A stretch of 64,000 nt of DNA from a virus (Duplodnaviria > Caudoviricetes), in the IMG/VR virus record IMGVR_UViG_3300030330_001640, positions 3,123 through 67,122 of that record. One strand, written 5' to 3'. Below, piece after piece: positions 33,253 through 46,011 of this stretch. Every line of letters begins with the position of its first letter. Position 1 is the first letter of the stretch. The position numbers and the translations under genes were made by a program. The notes below the pieces were generated by a model, which was not told the DNA's origin, did not search any database, and saw only the letters and a program-made list of their open reading frames with translations.

Positions 33253-34626
33253 ATGGCAGATAAAACATTAATATCAGGTGCGGCTCAGGTAGCAGCAACA
33301 AAAGGATCTGGAAACTTAGCGGCAGCGCAAGCGGGTACGCAAGTTGGCGCCTTCTTAGCTGACAATTTAGGTAAGATGATTCAAAAAAGAAACAATGAGT
33401 TTAATAAACTTATGGAAGCTGAGTTGGAAGCTGCTGGAGAGTTATCTCATGAAGATGCACAAAAGTTAATTAAAAGACTAAAAGGTAAAAGAGCTGGTTA
33501 TGTAATGCTAAATAAACGTGGCATGGTTGCAGCAGAAAAAGAATTACTTGAGGATGCTAAAAAAATAAAAGACAAAAAAATTACTAAAACTAAGATAATA
33601 GAAAAAATAATAGATGACTGTGAAGACAAAACGCCTTGTGATTGTTTAGAGCAAGAAATTGAAGAAACAGAAGATGGATGGGAAATAGATCCAAGGACTA
33701 AATGGGCCATAGAAAATGCTCCAGATGAAGTAATGCATACACCAGAAGGTAAGCCATATATACTTTCGTATGATCAAGCTTGGAATAATGTTGATAAAGA
33801 AGGTAATGAATTAGAAAATCCTAGATTTACTGAATCTGCAGATGGTAAAACTAAAACATCTATACATGGACATGTCTATCCAAATACTCCAGAAGGACAA
33901 GCTATATACAGAGCGCATGCAGAATCCAATTGGCAATCAGAAGGAGGTCAAGCTCTTGATTTTACTAATGAAGAAACGCTAAAAGAAACTTGGTATAAAT
34001 CTGCTACATATCAAGATCTTAAAGATAAAGATATAAAAGTTGTTGAGTCTTGGGCACAAGGTAACGAAAAGGTTAATATGACTAATATGGAATACGAAGG
34101 TCTAGTTAATTATTTATCGGTAGACAAAGAGAGTCAAACAAAAATAAGTACAGTAGTTCAAGCTGTCACAGAAGACGCTAACGCTTTTGTTGGAGGCGAT
34201 ACAACTAAGACATTTAATTATGATGCTACAAGAAATAATATTATGACTAACGTTATAAACGCTGATGGCGCAAACTTAAGATCACTAGCTAAAGATTCCA
34301 TATGGGGTGGTACATCATGGGAGACTGACATGCAAGAAGCTTTAACAAATGGTACGTATCAAGACTTAGGTATAACACAAGAGCAGGCTGAAAATCTAGA
34401 TCCAAATGGTGGTAATATAACAGCTGAAGATGCTAAAGTTATAACACAAGCTATCATGAAAGATGATGCTTTACTAAAAGAAACTTTAGGAGATTACTAT
34501 ACTAAGATCGCTGAAAATAATTACAATTTACAATCTAAAAAACCAAATGCTGATTTAAATCAAGGTGGTGGTGATACAGGTGATACTAGTGGAAGTGGTG
34601 ATGTAAATCTAGAAGAATTTGAATAA
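33253..34626 (+). CDS. internal virion / ejection protein 2
   Basis: MADKTLISGA start; helical; position. Confidence 0.6.
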   Translation: MADKTLISGAAQVAATKGSGNLAAAQAGTQVGAFLADNLGKMIQKRNNEFNKLMEAELEAAGELSHEDAQKLIKRLKGKRAGYVMLNKRGMVAAEKELLEDAKKIKDKKITKTKIIEKIIDDCEDKTPCDCLEQEIEETEDGWEIDPRTKWAIENAPDEVMHTPEGKPYILSYDQAWNNVDKEGNELENPRFTESADGKTKTSIHGHVYPNTPEGQAIYRAHAESNWQSEGGQALDFTNEETLKETWYKSATYQDLKDKDIKVVESWAQGNEKVNMTNMEYEGLVNYLSVDKESQTKISTVVQAVTEDANAFVGGDTTKTFNYDATRNNIMTNVINADGANLRSLAKDSIWGGTSWETDMQEALTNGTYQDLGITQEQAENLDPNGGNITAEDAKVITQAIMKDDALLKETLGDYYTKIAENNYNLQSKKPNADLNQGGGDTGDTSGSGDVNLEEFE

Positions 34627-34635
34627 TATATTAAT

Positions 34636-35415
34636 ATGAGCACAGACAAAACTAAAACTCACTATACATTTAAAATTACTAAAGACGGTAAACAATATCA
34701 ACTTAAAGTTAATCCTGAAAAGTTGAATCAGTTTTTTTTAAAATATCCAAACGCTATTCTTGTAAGTAGCCCACAAAACATGGTAGATGAGTTTAACAAA
34801 ACTTCTAGTCCTATTGAAGAAAGAGGTAACAATCCAAACGTGTTTGATCCAGATAATCCTGACGCATCATTGAGTGTATATAGTGATATTAGTGAGTTTA
34901 GCGTAGAAGGAAATGAACCTACCACTATACAAAACGAACCAGAGCCAGCTCCATCCGATATAAGAAAAACTCAATTCCATGATAGTTCGCCTTGTTTTGT
35001 TTCTGGTACTTTGATAGATATGTTTGATGGTTCAACTAAAGAAATACAAGATATAAAAGAAGGTGATTTAGTAAAATCATTTAAAGATGGTGAGTACGTT
35101 TCTGGAAAAGTAACTAAAAAACTAATATACGAAATAAACGATATAATGCCTGTAGCGCTATTAGAAGGTATAACGGGTTCTATTTATCATCCAGTTTTAA
35201 TTAATAATAAATGGATTGAACTTGGTGAGGCACCAATAGAAAAAGAACTAGACAATATGTTCATAGATACATATTACAATTTAGAAATAGATGGTGATAA
35301 TAATAATAGCAATCACAATTATATTATAAACGGACATATAATGTCTGGGCTTGGCGATTGCGAACATTTAAATAATAAATTCAAAAGACAAAATATATAC
35401 AAAGAAATTGTATAA
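34636..35415 (+). CDS. protein with C-terminal Hint (Hedgehog/intein) autoprocessing domain
   Basis: P|CFVSGTLI (Cys1 at 34993), IQDIKEGDLV, GSIYHPV, YYNLEIDG..HNYIING blocks; no terminal HN. Confidence 0.8.
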   Translation: MSTDKTKTHYTFKITKDGKQYQLKVNPEKLNQFFLKYPNAILVSSPQNMVDEFNKTSSPIEERGNNPNVFDPDNPDASLSVYSDISEFSVEGNEPTTIQNEPEPAPSDIRKTQFHDSSPCFVSGTLIDMFDGSTKEIQDIKEGDLVKSFKDGEYVSGKVTKKLIYEINDIMPVALLEGITGSIYHPVLINNKWIELGEAPIEKELDNMFIDTYYNLEIDGDNNNSNHNYIINGHIMSGLGDCEHLNNKFKRQNIYKEIV

Positions 35416-35442: not shown

Positions 35443-38400
35443 ATGGGTAAAATATATAGACTATCTAATGGTGGCCTTGTCACTGTAATGGTAGATGATG
35501 AAACTAATTTTTTTAATATATTAAAGGAAAGAAATTTAACAGCTGAGCTGGTAAATGATCCTAATACAGAATATGATAATGTACCTTCATATAAAGTATC
35601 GCTTTCTTCAAATGATACACAAGAAGATCCTACTGTAGAAGTAGAACAAAAAACAACTTTAAATCAAGAAATATCTACAATCAACAAAGTCGTTGAAATA
35701 ATTCCAAAAGAACAAGTAAAAGATTATGTAATAGGCGAGGGTTTAGATTTTGCTAAATCAACACCTAATGAAATACTAACATATCAAAATGCTAAAGATT
35801 ATTTTAATCAAAGATCTGAAGTAATGTCATACTTTAATTCAGATGATTATAAAGAACTTGACACAATGGACAAAGTTGTAAATAACTCAATGACAAAAAA
35901 TAGTGGTTATTTATCATTAGATATATATGGTCCTGTAAGCACTTGGGATGAAAATGCTACCATGCGTAATAAGGAAGTTAGAGATAAAATATTCGCTGGA
36001 ACACACGGTTATAATCCATATGAAGATAAACTATACAAATTACAAGATCCAGTTGAGGTAGATCTTGGCGCTAAAACGTATGCCTTAAAGCAACAAACAA
36101 GTTATCAAACTTTTAATAGTTTCATGGAAAGTCTTGAGAACCCAAAAAAATATCCAGAATATGTAGATGAAACCGGTAAGGTAATAAGTATGGAGCCATC
36201 AACTAAAACAAGTGATATGTTTCCTGATAGTGGTATATCCGAAGACGCTGGTATGGTTGCTTATAATACACCACCTATTTTAGATGTAAATGCTTTAAGT
36301 AAATACGAAAAAGATTTTGTTGATACTTTTGGTCCAATTTATTATTCTTATGGATTTAATATGGAACAGGCTAAAGGCTTTCATTTAATTAAAAGTTGGG
36401 ATCAACAAGCTGTTAAGGTAACCGCAATGAACGGTAAGTCAATAACTATAGATGTTGATGTTAAGGGTGATACCGCTAAAGAGCAATTAAAAATATTTAT
36501 GGATTTTGTTAACGCAAATACTCATAGTAAAGGTGGTGAGGATATGCTAGGTGAAATGTTTTATGAAGAAACTAAACCTACAGAAGAACAAATACATAAT
36601 ATAGAGACAAATTTTACCGTTGCTAATGAGATAATAGACAAAATGAGAATAGCGTTTAATATGCCTGACGCTACAGATGCTGAAATAATAAATATATACA
36701 ATGATTTTTCTAGATATAGAGAAAATGAAATTGGTGATATTACTAAACATAGCGATGCATATCATAGTGATCTTGATATTAGGTTTGAAGGATCAAACAT
36801 TAACTGGTCTTTAGAGAAAGTTAAATATTTTCAAGATGCCTTGGCTAACGAATTAGGTGAAAACTATACTGATTTTATTAGTGAATATATTGGTGCTTTA
36901 AATCATATAGTAAGTTACGAAAAAGATTTTTATGAAGGTGAAAACGGGGTTATATTAGAAGCGTTTTTACAAGACAGCAAAGCTGTTAGTGAATTTGTTA
37001 AAGGTGAAGGGGTTTACATGAGCGATTTTTACAAAGATAAACCTAAAGAATTTTTTACTAAACACGCTATGGGGCAAACGCTTTGGAAGGAATTACTTGA
37101 ATCAGAGTATTACAAAACTTGGCGTAAAAATTGGATAAAGCAAAATAAAAATAACTACGATCAAACTGTAGATATTAATTCTAAAAAGCTTTATAGATTT
37201 AATGAAACTATAGATATAATACAAAAGAACGCATCTGAGCACGTAGAATTTTTTTCTTCTAATGCTTTCGATAGATCTGAATTACAAGAAGTTGTATACA
37301 AGGACATGGTCTTAGATATAAAAAATGTTGAGAAAGAAATAGCCGAATCACTTGTTGAGATTGATTTTCTAACAGAAACTATGGACGATCTGTATTCAAC
37401 ACAGATAGCTATGGAAGAAGAATTAATATCTATGGGTATTAATCAATATGACGTTTTAGAAGATATAGCTGAAAAATATAACATAACAAGTCAAGAAGAT
37501 TTTTTGTCTAATGAAAATGCAATGGCTGAGTTTAGAGAGTATGAAAAAAAATACTCTGATTTATATAATGAATATGAAATTTTAATAACTCAGACTATAC
37601 CAGCTAATAATAAATTACTTTACGAAAAATACGATGTTATAGACACCAGCGCATGGAAAGCTGAAGAAATGAAATTGATGATGGATGTGTTAGGTAGAAA
37701 CAGCGAGTGGGGAACTTACTATAGTACAATAGGTGGTATAGCTATTATGGAAACTGTAATAGGTGGTACCGCAGCGCTTGTTAGTTCTGTCACAGACGCA
37801 TATCTTGAACTAGGTGAATACCACCCTGCTATGCAAATGGTTCTTGAAGATTTAAATAGTTGGGGTGATAGCTTAGGAACTGAGGTAAAGAAACGAGCAG
37901 AGTATGGTCGTAGTACGCTTGCTTTACCTACTCAATGGGGTGATATAACTGGCGTTTCATCAGCTATGGATTATTTAGTTACAAACACGCTTCAAACGGC
38001 GCCAATACTAATTTTAGCAAGCGCGTCAGGTGGTTATGCTTTACCAGTTATGGGTGTATACTCTGGTAGTCAGAAGTACGATAACATGAGAAGATCTAGA
38101 AATCTTTTTGAAGATACAGCCGGTATGTTTGGGCAAGATTTTACATTAGGTGAAATGTTATTAAACTCTGTTGTTACTGGTACAGCGGAAGGTTTAACTG
38201 AAAAAATAACCTTTGGTCAGTGGAGAAAGTTAGGTTATTTTGCTAATAATCCAGCGGCTAAGTTAGGTTTTGAAAAGGCTCTTCGTAAAAGTATCTATAC
38301 TCCAAAAAAAATGGCTCAATTTGTAGCTTATAATGGTAAACAATTTACTGAAGAAGGTGTCTCTGAGATGATAGCAGATTTTTCTAGTAATACTATGGAT

Positions 38401-41400
38401 GTGTGGACTGGTGTTGAAGGCGCTAATTACTGGGAAGGTATAGATGAGTCTTTCGTAAATGGTTTCTTTTTATCTACATTAATGCACATGCCTGCTATAG
38501 CTAATCAAGCTGTTATACAACCTTTTACTAAATCTGATACAAATCAAAGATTAGGAGAAATAGCTGAAAAATTAGCTGAGCTTAAATCGTACAAAGGTAA
38601 ATCATACGAAGAGTTAACTGATAAAGAAAAAGAAGAAGTTGATAAGCAGGTTGCTGAATTAGGCTTGCAAGCAGAAGAGTTATTAACTAGAGAATTATTT
38701 AAGGTAGATTTACTTACCAATGAACAAAAACAAAGATTACTAGAAATAAATAGATTAGATTTAGAAGCTCGTAAATCATACGAGATAATAATGGCTGATA
38801 GAAGTATAAAATCTGAAGATAAAATAAAAAGATTAACTGAGATAGAACAAGGTATAGAATCAAGAAGAGGTGAAAAGGATAAAATACTAGCTACAGTTAA
38901 TCCAGAAGCTGCTGAGAAAAAGTATAAAGAAAGCATGCAAAACATTAAAGATCAAGCTGATCTTGCTAACGAAATGGGTGGAGTTGAAGTAGAATTATAC
39001 GAACAAACTGATGAGCAATTTCAAGAAGATCAATCTAAAGATGAACAAAATAAATCTGCTGATGAAGTAGCAGATATAACCGCAGAATCAGAGGCTACAA
39101 TCGTTACGTTAACTGAGTCGATTGAAGAATCTGACAAAAATATAAAAGAATCTAAAGATAAAATTACTGAGACAAGAAAAGAAATAAAAGATATAAAGAA
39201 CGATAAGAAAAAAAATGACAATCAGAAGCTGAAAGAAATTGATAAAAAGAAAAAAGAGATTGACAAGGAAAAGAAAAAAATAATAAACGAAAGTAAGAAT
39301 AAAAAAGATGCTGAAAATTTAATAAGAGATAAAGGCGTACTACAAACAAACGTAAAAGTTGGGGCAAGTATTTTAAAAGATAATCCTTATGGTAGAATGA
39401 GACCTATATACGATAAAAACGGTAATCTTACTAAACTTAAACTATATGTCAATAAAGATAAGTCTATTGCTGATGGCATGTGGACTACAGGTGCTCATGA
39501 AATGATCCACGCTGTTTTTGCTAATACTATAAAATCAGATCCAGCCATGAGATTAAAACTTGGTGGAGCAATGGCCAAGATACTTAAAGGTAAAAATATA
39601 GAATTTAAAACAATGTCTGCTGCTGATATGTTTAATAAAAGGGTGGCTCAGTATAGTATCGATAAACAAGGTGAAGAAGCTTTAGCTATAGCTTCTGAAA
39701 TGTTAATAAAAGGAGATATAATACTAAAAGAAAGTACGTTAGGTAAGTTAGGTAGTATATTTAGAAGATGGTCTATGGATAGATATGGTACGACTTTTAA
39801 TTTTAATAACTCAAATGATATATTAAATTTTATAAAAGACTATCATTATTCTATTAAAAATAATAAACCAAGTAAAGCTATAGCAAAAATGTTAGCTAAA
39901 GGAGCTAATGGTAAAATGTTTGAAGGCGCTAAAACACCGCAAGATAGATCTAATTTAGACATGCATAGCGCTGTAGTTGGTAAATCTATAGAATCAGATC
40001 CTGATTTAAGACCGTTTTTTGATGATGTGGTTAAAGATAAAGGTGGGAAAGTTAAACATAGAAATCATGAAGATTTTAAAGCTTCCCCAGAATATATAGA
40101 AGGTTATGAAAAAATAGTTGATACTAATAAATTAAATGGTATAATACAAGCAGGCATGACAGAAAGAGGTTTACCTCCAGATGCGTTAAAAGATTTTACT
40201 AGAAAAGTTAAAGAAGAATTAGGTATAAGATACTTAAAAAATTATAATGTAGACAAAAACGACAGTTTATTCGGTTGGTTAACAGGTGTAGCAGGTGGAC
40301 AAGGCCAATCAATAATATATAGAGCGAAAGGCGATGTGATGAATGAGTACAAAAAACAAGTACCTAAGACATCTATAGATAAACCTATAAGTGAGTCTGG
40401 CACAGTAGCTGACGTAATACAAGCGGAAAAAGATGTGTTAATAGATAAAATTGAAAACGCAGACATGTCACCTGAATTATTACAAGAGTCTGTTCAAGAT
40501 GTTAATGACTTAATAATGGTAATGGATATGCTTGGTTTTTCAAATAATGTTAAGCAAGCTGTAAAAGATATTGTTAAAAGATCTAATATTAATTTGGATA
40601 ACTTAACTTATAAAGGTGTAAGAGATTTATTACTATCTGTTCAAAGTAAAGCTACTACTGAAAAAAATGTTGTACCTACAGGACCTTTGTTTGAAATATT
40701 AAATGCTATATCAGCTGAGTTTGGAGTTGATCCCCTTAGAATATTAGCTAAACAAGATTTAAATGCTGAACAAAGAAAAGCAGCACAAGAATATATATAT
40801 AATAAATCTACCAACGATGATGGTTCTTTTAATACAAGTTTGCTAGATATATTACCTGAAGGCCAAGACAGAGATGGTAGAGCCACTGGTGTTGCTAATA
40901 CTAAATTAGGGGAGTTCTATACTAAAGGCGATAGACTTAAGGTAAGGGAAGGCGCTAAAAAAGGTTTAGGCCAAAAGTTCGCTCAAAATAAAAGAACTAA
41001 CGTAACTAGAGAGCAGTTATTAGGTTTGTTTGGTATAAATACTGATGGTACTTTTCAACCTGGTACTAAAGCAGATGGAGCTATTAGAGAGCTAATAGTT
41101 CAAGTATCTCAATTAGCAGCTAATCAAGAAATAAGATTAGATGCTGTAGAAAATAGAGTAGAAGCAGCTAGTAATATAGCTAGATTAAAAGATGGCACTT
41201 CTTTAACTATGTACTCAAACCCTCCTAAAATTAATACTAAACAAAAAGTCGAGTTGGCAAAACAACTTTTCGATAAAAATTCAAATGTTTATGCTGAAAA
41301 TATACCAACAATACGTATTCAAACATTAACGCACATTTTAAAGTATGGTGATGATATAAAAAAGCTACAAGAGAAAAGACAGAGAATTATATATTACGAC

Positions 41401-44400
41401 GCTCCATCACCACTTAACCCGGATATAACAATGGGTGAACAGTTGAAACTTGATGTAGATGACTTCTTAAAACAGTATCCACAATATTACGATCAATTAA
41501 GAAATACAATGACTGGTGGAATAGGGATAAGTACTTTCTTTTCTGTAGAAAACTTTGAAAAAATGTTTCCTAGAGAAAAGTATGAACTTGGCGGATTATT
41601 TGCACAACAATCGCTTCCAAGAAATAGTTATACTTTTAAAAGCGATACAAAAACTGGTAAAAAAAGAAGATTTAATCCAAAGACTTTAAATAAAAAAGAT
41701 GACTCTAAACAAAGGTTAGATATACTTTACAACTTTGCTAAAGCAATGGAGGGTTACGTAAAAACAAATAAAAATCCTAAACCAGGGAATATTTACTTAT
41801 TCTCATTAATGGCATCTGATACTGTTAATAATCAGAATGGTGCTATAACTAGAATATTATCTCCATTTAGTTTTTATACTATAATGAAAAATGGTCAGCC
41901 AGATACAACTAATATAATGACAGAAGAGCACGCTGGTCCACAAAAGAGTATAATGGATATGTTAGTTAACGCAGCTAGAGTAGGTAAAGTTGATACAGTT
42001 TGGCCTATAGTTGAAGCTGTATTTGCACAAGGAACTTTATTAGATGTAATTGATAAAAGATTAAAAGACGTTAAAAATAGAGATGGTAAAAATCTTCAAG
42101 AAAATTTACCAGATATATTTTGGGATAGCATAGCAGAAAGAGTACTTGATGGTAAACTAGATGATCTACCACAAGGCTCTATAGCTATGGTTAGATATTT
42201 TGTGGCTGGTAAAGAGTTAAATATAGACATAATAAATACCATAAAATGGAAAAACGGTAAAACACTAGCCGAAATATTTGGGGTTAAAGTAGATGGTGAG
42301 ATATCACCAACTATATTTCAAGCTCAATATGACTTAGTATTAGATTATTTATCAGGTAATATAACTAAAGAAAAATTAGCTGAAGCTGTTAATAAGTTAA
42401 ACATAGAAGGTATAAACTATGTTGATGCTGTTAAAGAAGCACGCGATGTTAAAACAGGAGTACTTACATTGAATAACAATATGTACGATAGCTATAGTAA
42501 ACCTGTTAAAGTTAGAGGTATGTCTACATTTGATTTTGATGACACGTTAGCTAGAACTAAATCAGGTGTTAGGTACACAATGCCAAATAATACTGGTGAG
42601 CCAGCGCCTGGCAGAAAAGTTATATTCTTAGCTGGTAGTGCTGGTAGCGGTAAATCAAATGTTGTTAAGCAGTTAGGTTTACAAGAAAAAGGTTTTAAAA
42701 TAGTAAACCAAGATATAGCTTTAGAGTGGTTAACTAAAAATAGTGGACTACCTACAGATATGAGAGACTTTACACCTGAGCAAGCTAGTAAATGGGGAGA
42801 ATTACAATGGGAGGCTAGAGATATAGCACAACGTAAAGCTATTAAATTTAGAGGTAGAGGAGATGGTGTTGTGGTAGATGGCACAGGGGCAAGTACTGTT
42901 TCTTTATTTACACAAGCTCAAAAATATAAAGACGCGGGATATGATGTTAAAATGTTGTTTGTAGAAAGTTCTTTAGATACAGCTTTAGCTAGAAATAAAG
43001 CTAGAAAAGAAAGATCGTTAAAAGATTTTATAGTTGAACGTAACTGGAAAGCTGTACAAAAAAATAAAAAAGCTTTTAAAGAAGAGTTTGGTAATAATTT
43101 TACAGAAGTAAATACTGATAACTTAAAACAAGGTGATGCTATGCCTAACAACGTTGTCGTAGCTATAGATAACTTTACTAGTGGTTACATAAAAGGTAGA
43201 TTAACAGCAGAAGAATTTGCTAGCAAGGGTGGAGATTTATTAGATCAAGGCGCTTCATTTGATTTTTCTGAATTTAATAAAGTTGTAGATGGCACGCCAG
43301 GTCCTTTACTTGATAAAGCTAGAAACAGAGCTAAGAAGTTTGGTACAAAAGATATGTTTGTTTTAACGGCTAGACCTCAACAATCTGCTTTTGCTATACA
43401 ACAGTTTTTAAAAGGACAAGGTTTAGATATACCAATAGAAAACATAACTGGTTTAGCTAATAGTTCTGGTAATGCTAAAGCACAGTGGATGTTAGATAAG
43501 TTTGCTGAAGGATATAACGACATGTACTTTGTAGACGATGCTCTACAAAATGTTGAAGCTGTAAAAGCCGTACTAGATCAATTAGATATTAAATCTAAAG
43601 TAGTTCAAGCTAAATTAAAAGATCAAGGTAAGTTAGTAGAACCAGGTAATAATACTATGTATAGCAAAGTAGTTAATCCTGATAACATTAATATAGATAA
43701 AGAGTTTAATAATATTCTTGAGGTTAAAAAAGGTGTTGATGCTAATAAAAGGTTTTCATCTGCAGAAGCTAGAAAAAGAGGGGCTAAATTTAGATTAAGA
43801 CTTTACATACCACCATCAGCAGAAGACTTTAAAGGTTTATTATATTATTTCTTACCTAAAGGTAAAGAAGGTGAAAAGGCTTTAAAGTTTTTCGAAAAAA
43901 CATTATTAAAACCTTTTGCAAGAGGTATTAGAGCTTGGAACTCGTACAAACAAAATATGGTTAACGAGTATAACGATTTAAGAAAAAAATTTCCAGATGT
44001 AACTAAAGTTTTAAATGATAGAGTACCTGGAACTAGTTTTACAAATGATACCGCTATAAGAGTTTATTTGTGGACAAAAGCAGGATTTGATATTCCAGGT
44101 ATATCAAAAGCATTACAAAAAAGATTAGTAACTCACGTTAATGGAAACCCTAATTTAAAAGCGTTTGCTGATGGCTTATCAAAAGTTACTCGTAGAAAAG
44201 ATGGTTATCTTCCGCCAAATAAAAATTGGATGATGGAAGCTATACCCACTGATTTAAGAAATCTTGTAGACAAAGTAGGTAGAAAAGAGTTTTTACAAGA
44301 GTGGATTAATAATAAAGAAGAAATATTTTCTCAAGAAAATATTAATAAAATAGAAGCCTTGTATGGCTCAGACTTTAAATCAGCTTTATTAGATATACTA

Positions 44401-46011
44401 TTCCGTATGGAAAATGGTGGTAATAGAAAGCAAGGAAAAAGTAAATTAGTTAATAATCTTACTGATTGGATAAACGGGTCTATAGGTGCTATTATGTTCT
44501 TTAATATGAGATCTGCTTTATTACAAACACTATCAACTGTTAACTTTATAAACTGGAGTGATAACAATATGTTCAAAGCAGCAGCAGCATTTGCTAATCA
44601 AAAACAGTTTTGGCAAGACTTTGTAATGTTATTTAATTCACCAATGTTAAAACAAAGAAGAAAAGGTTTGCAAACAGATGTATCAGCAGCAGAATTAACA
44701 AAGTCATTTAAAGAAAGAGGGTATAGTCCAACTACAGTTATTAGTTATTTATTACAAAAAGGTTTTTTACCTACGCAAATAGCAGATAGTTTTGCTATTG
44801 CTTTTGGTGGCGCTAGTTTTTATAGAAATAGATATAACAAATATATTAAACAAGGTATGTCTGCTAAAGAAGCTCATGATAAAACTATGTTAGAGTTTCA
44901 AGAGATAGCTGAAGAAACTCAACAGTCATCAAGAGAAGATTTAGTATCACCACAACAAGCTGGACCATTAGGTAGGTTAATATTGGCTTTTCAAAATGTT
45001 ACAATGCAGTATGGTAGGTTGACTAAGAAAGCCTTGTCTGATACTGTTAATGGTAGAGGTGATATGAAAACTAATGTGTCAAAGTTAATATACTATGGTA
45101 TGGTGCAGAATGTAATATTCGCTGCACTACAGTCTGCTTTAGCATTTATAATGTGGGGCGACGATGAGGAAGAGATAAAAGATCAAACAACTAGAACAGC
45201 TAATAGTGTATTAGATTCTTTCTTACGTGGTACTGGAATATATGGAGCTATAGTTTCTACAATTAAAAATACTATAATACAATGGGATTTACAAAGCAAT
45301 AAAGATTATGGTAAAGCTAGACCCGAAAAAATACTATTAGAAATAGTTAATATATCCCCGCCAATAGGTAGTAAGCTTAGAAAAGTAATGAACGCTTATT
45401 ATGCTGAAGAATTTAATAGAGGTTTATCAGATGAGTTGGGATTAAGATTAGAAAATCCAACAATAAAAAAGTGGGCTAGTCTTGTAGAAGCTGCTACTAA
45501 TATACCTTTAGCTAGATTACTTAATAAAGCTAATAACTTAGAAGAAGCGATAACTGGTAATCATGAACTGTGGAAAAGAATAGCTATGTTTGCTGGTTGG
45601 AGTATGTGGAATATAGGCGTTGAAGATGAAGAAGTAGTAGCTGCTAAAGAAAGTCTAGCTGAGAAAAAAGAAATTGAAAAAGAAAAAGAAAAGGAAGAAA
45701 AGAAAATAGAGAAAGAAAAAGAAAAAGAAGAAAAGAAAAAAGCAGAAGAAGAAGAGAAGAAAAGAAAAGGTATTAAAACTGTAAGATGTTCTGGTATAAG
45801 ATCTAATGGTGAAAGATGTAAGTTAACAACTGAAACAGCTGAAAAGAAATATCTGTGCCCACATCACATGGAATTTACAGATGGTATGGACAGAGATGGC
45901 GATGGTATTAAAGAATATAGATGTACTTTTATTAAGAAAAACGGAGAACAGTGTAAGATGAAAGGTGAGTACGGAAAAGAAAAAAGATGTTATCATCATG
46001 TAGACAAGTAA
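35443..46011 (+). CDS. giant (3522 aa) multidomain ejection protein with metallopeptidase, HAD phosphatase, P-loop kinase and C-terminal zinc fingers
   Basis: HEMIH at 39496; DFDDT at 42532; GSAGSGKS at 42634; LTAR and FVDD HAD motifs; two C-x9-C..C-x2-H repeats. Confidence 0.75.
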   Translation: MGKIYRLSNGGLVTVMVDDETNFFNILKERNLTAELVNDPNTEYDNVPSYKVSLSSNDTQEDPTVEVEQKTTLNQEISTINKVVEIIPKEQVKDYVIGEGLDFAKSTPNEILTYQNAKDYFNQRSEVMSYFNSDDYKELDTMDKVVNNSMTKNSGYLSLDIYGPVSTWDENATMRNKEVRDKIFAGTHGYNPYEDKLYKLQDPVEVDLGAKTYALKQQTSYQTFNSFMESLENPKKYPEYVDETGKVISMEPSTKTSDMFPDSGISEDAGMVAYNTPPILDVNALSKYEKDFVDTFGPIYYSYGFNMEQAKGFHLIKSWDQQAVKVTAMNGKSITIDVDVKGDTAKEQLKIFMDFVNANTHSKGGEDMLGEMFYEETKPTEEQIHNIETNFTVANEIIDKMRIAFNMPDATDAEIINIYNDFSRYRENEIGDITKHSDAYHSDLDIRFEGSNINWSLEKVKYFQDALANELGENYTDFISEYIGALNHIVSYEKDFYEGENGVILEAFLQDSKAVSEFVKGEGVYMSDFYKDKPKEFFTKHAMGQTLWKELLESEYYKTWRKNWIKQNKNNYDQTVDINSKKLYRFNETIDIIQKNASEHVEFFSSNAFDRSELQEVVYKDMVLDIKNVEKEIAESLVEIDFLTETMDDLYSTQIAMEEELISMGINQYDVLEDIAEKYNITSQEDFLSNENAMAEFREYEKKYSDLYNEYEILITQTIPANNKLLYEKYDVIDTSAWKAEEMKLMMDVLGRNSEWGTYYSTIGGIAIMETVIGGTAALVSSVTDAYLELGEYHPAMQMVLEDLNSWGDSLGTEVKKRAEYGRSTLALPTQWGDITGVSSAMDYLVTNTLQTAPILILASASGGYALPVMGVYSGSQKYDNMRRSRNLFEDTAGMFGQDFTLGEMLLNSVVTGTAEGLTEKITFGQWRKLGYFANNPAAKLGFEKALRKSIYTPKKMAQFVAYNGKQFTEEGVSEMIADFSSNTMDVWTGVEGANYWEGIDESFVNGFFLSTLMHMPAIANQAVIQPFTKSDTNQRLGEIAEKLAELKSYKGKSYEELTDKEKEEVDKQVAELGLQAEELLTRELFKVDLLTNEQKQRLLEINRLDLEARKSYEIIMADRSIKSEDKIKRLTEIEQGIESRRGEKDKILATVNPEAAEKKYKESMQNIKDQADLANEMGGVEVELYEQTDEQFQEDQSKDEQNKSADEVADITAESEATIVTLTESIEESDKNIKESKDKITETRKEIKDIKNDKKKNDNQKLKEIDKKKKEIDKEKKKIINESKNKKDAENLIRDKGVLQTNVKVGASILKDNPYGRMRPIYDKNGNLTKLKLYVNKDKSIADGMWTTGAHEMIHAVFANTIKSDPAMRLKLGGAMAKILKGKNIEFKTMSAADMFNKRVAQYSIDKQGEEALAIASEMLIKGDIILKESTLGKLGSIFRRWSMDRYGTTFNFNNSNDILNFIKDYHYSIKNNKPSKAIAKMLAKGANGKMFEGAKTPQDRSNLDMHSAVVGKSIESDPDLRPFFDDVVKDKGGKVKHRNHEDFKASPEYIEGYEKIVDTNKLNGIIQAGMTERGLPPDALKDFTRKVKEELGIRYLKNYNVDKNDSLFGWLTGVAGGQGQSIIYRAKGDVMNEYKKQVPKTSIDKPISESGTVADVIQAEKDVLIDKIENADMSPELLQESVQDVNDLIMVMDMLGFSNNVKQAVKDIVKRSNINLDNLTYKGVRDLLLSVQSKATTEKNVVPTGPLFEILNAISAEFGVDPLRILAKQDLNAEQRKAAQEYIYNKSTNDDGSFNTSLLDILPEGQDRDGRATGVANTKLGEFYTKGDRLKVREGAKKGLGQKFAQNKRTNVTREQLLGLFGINTDGTFQPGTKADGAIRELIVQVSQLAANQEIRLDAVENRVEAASNIARLKDGTSLTMYSNPPKINTKQKVELAKQLFDKNSNVYAENIPTIRIQTLTHILKYGDDIKKLQEKRQRIIYYDAPSPLNPDITMGEQLKLDVDDFLKQYPQYYDQLRNTMTGGIGISTFFSVENFEKMFPREKYELGGLFAQQSLPRNSYTFKSDTKTGKKRRFNPKTLNKKDDSKQRLDILYNFAKAMEGYVKTNKNPKPGNIYLFSLMASDTVNNQNGAITRILSPFSFYTIMKNGQPDTTNIMTEEHAGPQKSIMDMLVNAARVGKVDTVWPIVEAVFAQGTLLDVIDKRLKDVKNRDGKNLQENLPDIFWDSIAERVLDGKLDDLPQGSIAMVRYFVAGKELNIDIINTIKWKNGKTLAEIFGVKVDGEISPTIFQAQYDLVLDYLSGNITKEKLAEAVNKLNIEGINYVDAVKEARDVKTGVLTLNNNMYDSYSKPVKVRGMSTFDFDDTLARTKSGVRYTMPNNTGEPAPGRKVIFLAGSAGSGKSNVVKQLGLQEKGFKIVNQDIALEWLTKNSGLPTDMRDFTPEQASKWGELQWEARDIAQRKAIKFRGRGDGVVVDGTGASTVSLFTQAQKYKDAGYDVKMLFVESSLDTALARNKARKERSLKDFIVERNWKAVQKNKKAFKEEFGNNFTEVNTDNLKQGDAMPNNVVVAIDNFTSGYIKGRLTAEEFASKGGDLLDQGASFDFSEFNKVVDGTPGPLLDKARNRAKKFGTKDMFVLTARPQQSAFAIQQFLKGQGLDIPIENITGLANSSGNAKAQWMLDKFAEGYNDMYFVDDALQNVEAVKAVLDQLDIKSKVVQAKLKDQGKLVEPGNNTMYSKVVNPDNINIDKEFNNILEVKKGVDANKRFSSAEARKRGAKFRLRLYIPPSAEDFKGLLYYFLPKGKEGEKALKFFEKTLLKPFARGIRAWNSYKQNMVNEYNDLRKKFPDVTKVLNDRVPGTSFTNDTAIRVYLWTKAGFDIPGISKALQKRLVTHVNGNPNLKAFADGLSKVTRRKDGYLPPNKNWMMEAIPTDLRNLVDKVGRKEFLQEWINNKEEIFSQENINKIEALYGSDFKSALLDILFRMENGGNRKQGKSKLVNNLTDWINGSIGAIMFFNMRSALLQTLSTVNFINWSDNNMFKAAAAFANQKQFWQDFVMLFNSPMLKQRRKGLQTDVSAAELTKSFKERGYSPTTVISYLLQKGFLPTQIADSFAIAFGGASFYRNRYNKYIKQGMSAKEAHDKTMLEFQEIAEETQQSSREDLVSPQQAGPLGRLILAFQNVTMQYGRLTKKALSDTVNGRGDMKTNVSKLIYYGMVQNVIFAALQSALAFIMWGDDEEEIKDQTTRTANSVLDSFLRGTGIYGAIVSTIKNTIIQWDLQSNKDYGKARPEKILLEIVNISPPIGSKLRKVMNAYYAEEFNRGLSDELGLRLENPTIKKWASLVEAATNIPLARLLNKANNLEEAITGNHELWKRIAMFAGWSMWNIGVEDEEVVAAKESLAEKKEIEKEKEKEEKKIEKEKEKEEKKKAEEEEKKRKGIKTVRCSGIRSNGERCKLTTETAEKKYLCPHHMEFTDGMDRDGDGIKEYRCTFIKKNGEQCKMKGEYGKEKRCYHHVDK

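What the first reader, a model, noticed from the sequence alone, without database searches (positions are those of the whole stretch)
34636..35415. Hedgehog/Vint-type Hint autoprocessing protein inserted in the ejection-protein operon
Seen: an N-terminal ~119 aa segment, then SSP|CFVSGT, a block B-like SIYHP, and block F YYNLEI..HNYIING, ending in HIMSGLG plus a short tail instead of the intein HN. Its first 45 aa (Y.L.V......FF.KYPNA.LV) loosely resemble the start of the adjacent giant protein (Y.L....V.V......FF......AELV). Known: Hedgehog-type Hint domains cleave at Cys1 and transfer the N-domain to a nucleophile. Inference: the phage covalently couples an ejection-type N-domain to a small molecule, lipid or partner protein during assembly or injection.
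Basis: partly seen in the sequence, partly recalled or inferred. Interest (0 to 1): 0.7.

Follow-up and report, generated by a model that had tools for sequence, protein, structure and literature searches.

The report
Self-cleaving Hint tail on phage protein
A small gene in the virion-protein block of an uncultured marine flavobacterial-type phage fuses a copy of the neighbouring giant protein's N-terminal module to an intact, selectively maintained Hedgehog/intein-type (Hint) self-cutting domain. That domain belongs to an unstudied subfamily found at the very end of many phage structural proteins.

Summary
ORF 34636-35415 (+, 259 aa) has a 119-aa N-part followed by a complete Hint domain. Pfam Vint scores 36 bits against a cut-off of 27, and the AF2 Hint part has pLDDT above 90. 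The best solved matches are BIL2, a bacterial intein-like (BIL) domain and Vint.

Cys120, His185 (S-x-x-H-P) and the block F/G residues are invariant in 30 relatives. The intein His-Asn end is replaced by a family signature, SGLGD..LN..F.RQ, and the protein stops soon after. The Hint part is under purifying selection (dN/dS 0.14), so it is not a dead insert.

A profile built only from giant-protein N-termini of 22 related phages hits the window's giant protein (E 2e-8) and this ORF (E 4e-5), and nothing else.

The gene is rare. None of 80 related loci carries this Hint. Of 45 that cover the slot, only the closest relative has a gene there, a 75-aa homologue of the N-part without Hint. In sister phages the same Hint type ends the large tail protein.

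My best reading is a self-removing C-terminal module that releases a docking-module fragment. Transfer to a partner is possible but untested. I found no isolate phage or paper with it. This scan had already noted similar Hint tails in giant viruses.

The parts
34636..35415 (+). Whole ORF, 259 aa plus stop (P0001): N-fragment plus C-terminal Hint domain
   Evidence: Seven homologue clusters at 63-98% identity. In L114, L115 and L116 the gene lies in the same position, directly upstream of the giant gene.
34636..34779 (+). N-terminal module, residues 1-48. It has a beta-beta-alpha-beta fold (residues 10-44) and is a paralogue of the giant protein's N-terminal module.
   Evidence: AF2 pLDDT is about 90 for residues 10-44. 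HMM of giant N-termini: E 3.6e-5. phmmer against L079: 2.7e-6. hhalign: E 2e-4. No solved fold match, Z at most 3.8.
34780..34992 (+). Linker, residues 49-119, predicted disordered. It carries a conserved linear motif N-V-[FY]-D-P-x-N-P..S.[ST]V.SD...F..EG...T (residues 68-96) and ends at the predicted scissile bond Pro119|Cys120.
   Evidence: pLDDT below 50 for residues 50-115. Invariant columns N68 V69 D71 P72 N74 P75 S78 V81 S83 D84 F88 E91 G92 T96. The motif is shared with the 75-aa ORF of L034.
34993..35355 (+). Hint core, residues 120-240. Features: Cys120-Phe121 (block A); G-S182-x-x-H185-P186 (block B, 35179-35193); Y213-YNLEIDGD...S.H227-NYIING (blocks F/G, 35272-35334); S237-G-L-G240 in place of the intein His-Asn.
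   Evidence: Pfam Vint, residues 119-240. Invariant columns in 30 sequences. Foldseek hits to BIL2, BIL and Vint. dN/dS 0.14 against L115.
35356..35412 (+). Family-specific C-terminal tail, residues 241-259: D241...L245-N246..F.R251-Q252, two short helices. The stop codon is at 35413-35415.
   Evidence: The signature occurs in 72 of the 149 best cluster representatives, and 67 of those end within 30 aa after RQ. Helices 243-249 and 253-256 in the model.
35443..35574 (+). N-terminal module of the 3522-aa giant virion protein (gene 35443-46011), the paralogue of the N-terminal module of this ORF
33253..34626 (+). Upstream 457-aa gene of the virion block. In 43 of 44 related loci its counterpart is followed directly by the giant gene.

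Best explanation
P0001 is most likely an autoprocessing pro-protein.

1. Its C-terminal Hint domain is a Vint/BIL-like subfamily with a conserved SGLGD..LN..F.RQ tail and no terminal Asn. I infer that it carries out an N-to-S acyl shift at Pro119|Cys120.
2. I infer that the resulting thioester is then resolved, most simply by hydrolysis.
3. This would release a fragment of about 13 kDa and discard the 140-aa Hint part.
4. The released fragment is the working product. It consists of a copy of the roughly 40-aa N-terminal module that heads the neighbouring giant virion protein, plus a conserved acidic linear motif.
5. I infer that the fragment binds whatever the giant protein's N-terminus binds during virion assembly or ejection.

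The Hint part is an accessory, horizontally exchanged C-terminal cassette that marine phages carry on structural proteins.

Shown: domain identity, intact catalytic residues, purifying selection, paralogy of the N-module, rarity of the gene, and recurrence of the cassette on other virion proteins.

Inferred: cleavage, the fate of the thioester, and the docking role.
For: Hint identity and fold.

Catalytic residues: Cys1, block B His and block F/G residues are invariant in 30 sequences, and Gly replaces the splice Asn.

Selection: window against L115 gives Hint dN/dS 0.14 at dS 0.31. The N-part has diverged to 44% identity with dS 1.16. The adjacent giant gene start has dS 0.32.

Conserved architecture: of the 149 listed best cluster representatives (605 hits at E<=1e-3 in all), 72 carry the signature, and 67 of those end within 30 aa after it. 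Host proteins range from about 160 to 1566 aa.

Recurrence on virion proteins:
- L008 has the large tail protein plus Hint.
- L020 and L024 have the N-half of that protein plus Hint, followed by the C-half as a separate ORF. Relatives encode both halves in a single ORF.
- Other Hint-carrying proteins lie after a tape-measure gene, a baseplate wedge gene or a portal gene.

The N-fragment is a unit of its own. The closest relative, L034, has a 75-aa Hint-less homologue in the same slot. It is the only hit among 17,025 frames of 84 related loci (E 6.6e-4).

N-module paralogy.

Synteny: the gene lies directly upstream of the giant gene in three further lineages.
Against: - No cleavage has been shown for any member of this subfamily.
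- Pro precedes Cys1 in this allele; close homologues have Ala. Pro is rare in the family (1 of 53). By general knowledge of engineered inteins it strongly slows the acyl shift.
- The conserved tail is not explained by simple hydrolysis.
- The docking role of the N-module rests only on its position and conservation.
- The L034 homologue stops about 40 residues before the equivalent of the predicted cut, not at it.
Confidence: 0.55

Rival explanations
1. Hint-driven ligation. The thioester at residue 119 is attacked by an amine of a partner, such as a Lys side chain of a virion protein or another nucleophile. This would covalently attach the N-fragment, as Tetrahymena BIL2 does with ubiquitin-like domains. 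In L020 and L024 the same chemistry could re-join the two halves of the split tail protein.
For: The closest solved relative by both fold and sequence is BIL2. BIL2 forms a Lys isopeptide bond to substrates without ATP (PMC8616854). The tail and several polar residues (E217, D219, N246, R251, Q252) are invariant and have no role in plain cleavage. The Hint sits exactly at the break of a split tail protein in L020 and L024.
Against: No acceptor has been identified. BIL2 has a terminal Asn and a C-terminal ubiquitin-like acceptor, and both are absent here. ORF2 of L020 starts Met-Ala-Ala, so it has no N-terminal Cys/Ser. Most hosts of the cassette are unsplit proteins.
Confidence: 0.17
2. Mainly selfish cassette. 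The Hint plus tail plus stop is a mobile element that spreads by recombination onto or into phage structural genes. It is kept intact only because it must cut itself off to stay harmless. The small gene in this phage would be a by-product with little function.
For: Sporadic occurrence: 0 of 80 related loci carry this Hint, and the slot is empty in 43 of 44. In a FastTree of 90 Hint domains, the Hints of related phages (window, L008, L020/L024) fall in separate clades (topology not tested for support). The Hint part has lower G+C (27%) than the N-part (34%) and the window (33%). The N-part has been swapped relative to the Hint.
Against: No homing endonuclease or other mobility gene lies next to it. 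The N-fragment has its own conserved motifs and a Hint-less homologue. Position upstream of the giant gene is stable across lineages at 65-97% identity. This rival overlaps with the best explanation, because self-removal is the same chemistry.
Confidence: 0.15
3. Non-cleaving Hint. With Pro at -1 the domain does not process itself. It would then act as a folded binding or structural domain tethered to the docking module.
For: Pro at -1 in the window, P0003 and P0005. Some family members have N-parts of only about 20-35 aa, so in those the Hint is almost the whole protein.
Against: Cys1 and block B His are invariant across all 30 aligned members and the wider family. That is hard to explain without catalysis. 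Sister alleles have Ala at -1.
Confidence: 0.1

Closest known systems
Vint domain (Pfam PF14623; Tetrahymena structure 8r2c; Burglin 2008, PMC2362128)
   Same: It is the only Pfam family above its cut-off (36 bits against 27). Motifs A and B are conserved, and it is a C-terminal Hint without the intein splice end. Foldseek to 8r2c gives E 1e-5.
   Different: Only profile positions 1-114 of 166 match. There are no VWA or Vwaint domains. The host is a phage rather than a eukaryote. The C-terminal SGLGD..LN..F.RQ signature is specific to this subfamily. Sequence similarity to 8r2c (E 2.6e-4) is weaker than to BIL2.
BIL2 domain of the Tetrahymena BUBL1 locus (PDB 6y75, 6tmm) and the Clostridium thermocellum BIL domain (2lwy)
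   Same: These are the best structural matches (E about 2e-7) and the second-best sequence match among solved structures (E 7e-9; an intein-domain protein, 8w20, scores 4e-9). Block A is similar: [CA]FVS.T.I.M.D. BIL2 shows that such a domain can pass its N-flank to an external lysine.
   Different: BIL2 ends in Asn and is flanked on both sides by ubiquitin-like domains. Here there is no Asn and no C-flank, and the N-flank is not ubiquitin-like by any test run here (inconclusive).
Hedgehog C-terminal autoprocessing (Hog) domain (PF01079; PDB 1at0, 6tyy)
   Same: The overall logic is the same: an N-terminal cargo, a Cys-Phe start of the Hint, and N-terminal cleavage only.
   Different: PF01079 scores 14.5 bits, below its cut-off of 29.7. 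Foldseek gives only E about 1e-3. There is no sterol-recognition region, since only 19 aa follow the Hint. There is no signal peptide. The residue at -1 is Pro or Ala rather than Gly.
Inteins, including phage mini-inteins
   Same: HINT fold, Cys1, block B His, and a block F/G-like YNLE..H.Y..NG.
   Different: There is no C-extein, no terminal Asn, no +1 nucleophile and no homing endonuclease. The ORF stops after the domain.
Self-cleaving C-terminal intramolecular chaperone domains of phage tail spikes and fibres (Peptidase S74 type). This is a functional analogy from general knowledge.
   Same: Both are removable C-terminal modules on phage tail proteins. The Hint cassette sits at the end of tail-module proteins in several phage types.
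   Different: The fold and chemistry are unrelated. Hint cleavage passes through a thioester that could be transferred.
Hint tails on giant-virus membrane proteins noted earlier in this scan (for example e1-5493798, e1-5566391)
   Same: Vint-type Hint at the C-terminus of viral proteins, with relatives that lack it. Atlas look-alike clusters are viral and include Nucleocytoviricota.
   Different: The hosts differ (membrane proteins of giant viruses) and, by those notes, so does the C-terminal ending. I did not check those notes myself.

Membership tests
Hint superfamily (Hedgehog/intein fold) | Nucleophilic Cys/Ser as first residue of the domain | tested here: met
   Cys120 is invariant in 30 of 30 aligned members, and the domain starts CF in the 68 full-length matches.
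Hint superfamily (Hedgehog/intein fold) | Block B T/S-x-x-H | tested here: met
   S182-I-Y-H185-P. His185 and Pro186 are invariant, and position -3 is mostly S/T.
Hint superfamily (Hedgehog/intein fold) | HINT fold | tested here: met
   AF2 pLDDT above 90 for residues 120-250. Foldseek probability 1.00 to BIL, Vint, intein and Hedgehog structures.
Hint superfamily (Hedgehog/intein fold) | Autocatalytic cleavage at the N-terminal junction | not testable with these tools
   This needs expression of the wild type against C120A. Pro at -1 is a caveat.
Vint (PF14623) | Profile score above the curated cut-off | tested here: met
   36.0 bits against 27, E 7.5e-9, covering profile positions 1-114 of 166 only.
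Vint (PF14623) | VWA - Vwaint - Vint architecture (Burglin 2008) | tested here: not met
   No VWA or Vwaint hit. The N-part is 119 aa and is related to the giant protein's N-terminus.
Hedgehog Hog domain | PF01079 above cut-off | tested here: not met
   14.5 bits against 29.7.
Hedgehog Hog domain | Sterol-recognition region after the Hint module | tested here: not met
   Only 19 residues follow SGLG. In the wider family a median of 10 residues follows the RQ of the signature.
Intein | C-terminal (His-)Asn followed by a Cys/Ser/Thr of a C-extein | tested here: not met
   M-S-G-L-G-D stands in place of H-N, with Gly238 invariant. The stop codon comes 19 aa later.
Intein | In-frame insertion in a conserved host protein that is continuous in intein-less homologues | tested here: not met
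   Relatives have no gene in the slot, or a 75-aa Hint-less ORF. The giant gene keeps its own N-module.
Bacterial intein-like (BIL) domains | Closest similarity to solved BIL domains | tested here: met
   6y75/6tmm and 2lwy are the top Foldseek hits. BIL2 scores E 7e-9 by profile.
Bacterial intein-like (BIL) domains | Terminal Asn, as in BIL2 (N143) | tested here: not met
   There is no Asn at the equivalent position. The mutant name C1A-N143A appears in the entry titles.

The most novel reading that the evidence does not exclude
The cassette is a phage-borne, ATP-independent protein-ligation device. The Hint charges the C-terminus of its N-flank as a thioester and hands it to a lysine or another nucleophile of a virion partner.

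In this phage that would covalently plant a copy of the giant protein's docking module at the giant protein's binding site. In sister phages it would stitch together the two halves of a split tail protein. The conserved SGLGD..LN..F.RQ tail would be the acceptor-recognition element.
Probability: 0.15. Interest if true: 0.85.

Novelty: new variant of a known kind. Interest (0 to 1): 0.6.

Why it matters
Hint domains are known as inteins, as Hedgehog processing domains and as a few bacterial and protist oddities. I found no study of a conserved Hint subfamily that sits at the very end of phage virion proteins. It was absent from 50,697 GenBank phage records searched with two members and from my full-text searches.

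If it simply cuts itself off, it is a new kind of removable pro-domain for phage tail and internal proteins. It would also be a compact (about 140 aa) natural self-cleaving tag.

If it transfers its cargo, as its closest solved relative BIL2 does, it would be a virus-encoded covalent assembly step and a natural ligation tool.

The pairing with a duplicated N-terminal module also points to a roughly 40-aa module that probably directs the giant protein to its place in the virion.

Tried and rejected
- Direct BLASTP of the ORF against the first 200 aa of the giant protein gave nothing (E 1.8). Only profiles from relatives showed the relation.
- PHROGs and NCBIfam gave no family for the ORF.
- tblastn against GenBank phages found only inteins in helicases.
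- The N-module alone has no convincing solved fold (VIA-align Z at most 3.8). This is inconclusive and does not show a new fold.
- A search for free-standing N-part homologues in the 5.8-billion protein set found only a frameshifted fragment.
- A single-sequence scan for relatives of the giant protein in viral contigs found nothing. A scan based on an alignment of the tail protein worked.
- I checked whether the downstream ORF is in frame with the Hint ORF, as a test for readthrough or a former intein. It is in frame in the window, L008 and L020/L024, but in none of 11 other loci, and here two stop codons intervene. This is consistent with chance.
- DNA repeats between the two N-modules are weak and AT-rich, so they are not evidence of a recent duplication.
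- The large 2171-aa protein matches the crAss muzzle C-terminal domain only below the cut-off (19 bits against 27). I therefore call it the large tail/virion protein rather than the muzzle.

Full report
**What is there.** The window is most of a 67-kb, complete-looking viral record. Its terminase, portal, capsid and tail genes relate it to marine Flavobacteriia podophages of the Cellulophaga phi38:1 type (Pervagoviridae) and to Flavobacterium 'elemo' phages.

ORF 34636-35415 (+) encodes 259 aa. It lies 9 nt after a 457-aa gene and 27 nt before a 3522-aa gene. The block runs from a 2171-aa large tail/virion protein to that giant protein. Its counterparts in phi38:1 are annotated as virion structural proteins. 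So 'virion block' is supported, while 'ejection operon' remains an inference.

**The Hint domain is real and intact.** Pfam Vint (PF14623) matches residues 119-240 at E 7.5e-9, with 36 bits against a cut-off of 27. Hedgehog Hint, Hint_2 and Hom_end_hint match only the first 30-40 residues and fall below their cut-offs.

An AF2 model built on 30 sequences has pLDDT above 90 across residues 120-250. Foldseek places it in the HINT fold, in this order:
- Tetrahymena BIL2 (6y75/6tmm, E 2e-7)
- the C. thermocellum BIL domain (2lwy)
- the Tetrahymena Vint domain (8r2c, E 1e-5)
- mini-inteins
- Hedgehog (E about 1e-3)

By profile against PDB sequences, BIL2 scores 7e-9, Vint 2.6e-4 and Sonic hedgehog 0.02.

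In 30 aligned members these residues are invariant: C120, F121, H185, P186, W193, N215, L216, E217, D219, H227, S237, G238, G240, L245, N246 and R251. This gives Cys1, an S/T-x-x-H-P block B and an intein-like block F/G (YNLE.D...S.H.Y..NG). The splice His-Asn is replaced by S-G-L-G-D, followed by a conserved LN..F.RQ tail. With no Asn and no C-flank, only N-terminal cleavage or transfer is chemically expected. That last step follows from the established intein and Hedgehog mechanism.

**A defined, unstudied subfamily.** A profile search of 1.84 billion cluster representatives gave 605 hits at E<=1e-3 and 126 at 1e-10. Of the best 149, 72 carry the signature. In 67 of those the protein ends within 30 residues of it (median 10). 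The upstream parts range from about 20 aa to over 1400 aa and are unrelated to each other.

None of the members looked up carries a name. PHROGs, NCBIfam and Pfam say nothing about the N-parts. No GenBank phage record holds a member.

Twenty-five IMG/VR contigs do hold one. In those, the Hint is always the last domain of its ORF.

Three of these contigs are relatives of this phage. In L008 the large tail protein, extended, ends in this Hint. In L020 and L024 the tail protein is split: ORF1 (1420 aa) is its N-part plus the Hint, and ORF2 (479 aa) is its C-part. At least eight relatives encode both parts in a single ORF.

Other Hint-carrying proteins lie a few genes after a tape-measure gene, a baseplate-wedge gene or a portal gene. 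A group of about 750-aa proteins carries an intein-like Hint followed by this one.

**The N-part.** Residues 10-44 fold as beta-beta-alpha-beta with pLDDT about 90. Residues 50-115 are predicted disordered. They nevertheless contain invariant positions, N-V-[FY]-D-P-x-N-P..S..V.SD...F..EG...T.

BLASTP does not support it (E 1.8). However, the giant proteins of relatives start with a shared module, Y.L.NGK..V.PE.E..FL.KYPNA..L, and three tests link it to this ORF:
- BLASTP of the ORF against the L005 giant N-terminus gives E 0.002.
- hhalign gives E 2e-4.
- phmmer of residues 1-60 against 45 giant N-termini gives 2.7e-6 for L079.

The cleanest test used an HMM built from 22 such N-termini, with no window sequence in it. 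It was searched against all 431 frames of the window. It finds the giant protein (1.9e-8) and this ORF (3.6e-5), and then nothing below 0.32. So the ORF starts with a paralogue of the giant protein's N-terminal module. That module has no convincing solved fold match.

**Distribution.** I fetched the 80 closest of 295 related viral loci through the tail protein. None has this Hint within 10 kb. Forty-five reach the giant gene, and in 43 of the other 44 it follows the preceding gene within 54 nt. L005 and MW202828.1 are the same.

The exception is L034, the closest relative (76% identity in the tail protein). It has a 75-aa ORF in the slot that carries the N-module and the DPNNPD motif but no Hint. 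That ORF is the only hit of an N-fragment profile among 17,025 frames of 84 related loci (E 6.6e-4; hhalign 3.4e-4).

Seven homologue clusters of the full gene exist in metagenomes. For the three whose DNA I could fetch, the gene again sits directly upstream of the giant gene.

**Selection.** Comparing the window with L115:

| Region | aa identity | dS | dN/dS |
|---|---|---|---|
| Hint part | 91% | 0.31 | 0.14 |
| First 157 codons of the giant gene | 86% | 0.32 | not computed |
| N-part | 44% | 1.16 | 0.48 |

The Hint is therefore kept by purifying selection. The N-part is a diverged or exchanged allele between conserved flanks.

**How it most likely works.** I commit, at about 55%, to a self-removing C-terminal Hint. 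It would release a 119-aa fragment made of the docking-type module plus the linear motif. That fragment would act where the giant protein's N-terminus acts. The Hint-less L034 gene shows that such a fragment can stand alone.

The main caveat is that Pro precedes Cys1 in this allele, whereas sister alleles have Ala, and Pro is rare in the family.

Rivals:
- Ligation to a partner nucleophile, about 17%. It is supported by the BIL2 precedent (PMC8616854), by the unexplained conserved tail and by the split tail protein. No acceptor is known.
- A mainly selfish mobile cassette, about 15%. It is supported by sporadic occurrence, by separate Hint clades in related phages (untested topology) and by lower G+C. 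Against it, there is no mobility gene.
- A non-cleaving binding domain, about 10%.

**Comparison and novelty.** The domain works like a Hedgehog/BIL-type autoprocessing domain. It passes the Vint profile but lacks the VWA-Vwaint architecture and the last third of the profile. It fails the Hog and intein definitions.

I found no paper on Hint domains at the ends of phage structural proteins. Earlier notes of this scan describe Vint-type 'self-removing tails' on giant-virus membrane proteins. The Atlas look-alikes are viral, including Nucleocytoviricota. I did not test those notes.

I rate this a new variant of a known kind, of moderate to good interest. Its value rests on the first biochemical test.

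Noticed in passing
L020:4158-9890 and L024:4170-9905: In two related phages the large tail protein is split into two ORFs. The first ends in the same type of Hint domain (...GGNTC|CFIEGDEVEMYD...). The second starts 30 nt later with MAAIIEV. Relatives encode both parts in one ORF of 1525-3219 aa.
   Followed up: partly
L016:6132-8414, L023, L025-L030, L032, L017-L019, L021 (contigs up to 202 kb): Proteins of about 735-765 aa from large phage contigs carry two Hint domains in tandem. The first (around residues 461-600) is intein/PT-HINT-like. The second, at the very C-terminus, is of the SGLGD-tail type. The 460-aa N-part has no family.
   Followed up: no
window 35443-35574 and the starts of giant genes in L034-L086: The giant virion proteins of at least 22 related phages begin with a shared module of about 40 aa (Y.L.NGK..V.PE.E..FL.KYPNA). 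It is a candidate docking or targeting module. More distant relatives start differently.
   Followed up: partly
L003/L004:5099-10699: A 1866-aa phage structural protein has a Pro-rich stretch, then GCGC|FIADTLIDMFDGS, a Hint domain of another subtype, and about 100 further residues.
   Followed up: no
L002:2-1732: An ORF of uncertain identity contains a classical intein (CLVGDTRVLM ... VSHNT). An overlapping 156-aa ORF in another frame has Cys/His motifs, which suggests a possible nested endonuclease.
   Followed up: no
window 34731-34739: There is a run of eight T inside the ORF, at the codons for Q-F-F-L. A 71-aa database protein (P0010) is identical up to this point and then diverges. It looks like a frameshift in another assembly at this homopolymer.
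   Followed up: no
window 34636-35415, residues 44-46, 57-59 and 117-119: The tripeptide Ser-Ser-Pro occurs three times, the last directly before Cys120. Only the first occurrence is conserved in homologues (S.P).
   Followed up: no
protein P0160 (member of the P0007 cluster): One metagenomic copy of the gene is 378 aa long. It has an unrelated stretch of about 110 aa (MKKYEAMVLSCMDPRF...) in front of the N-module. This could be a different context or a chimeric assembly.
   Followed up: no
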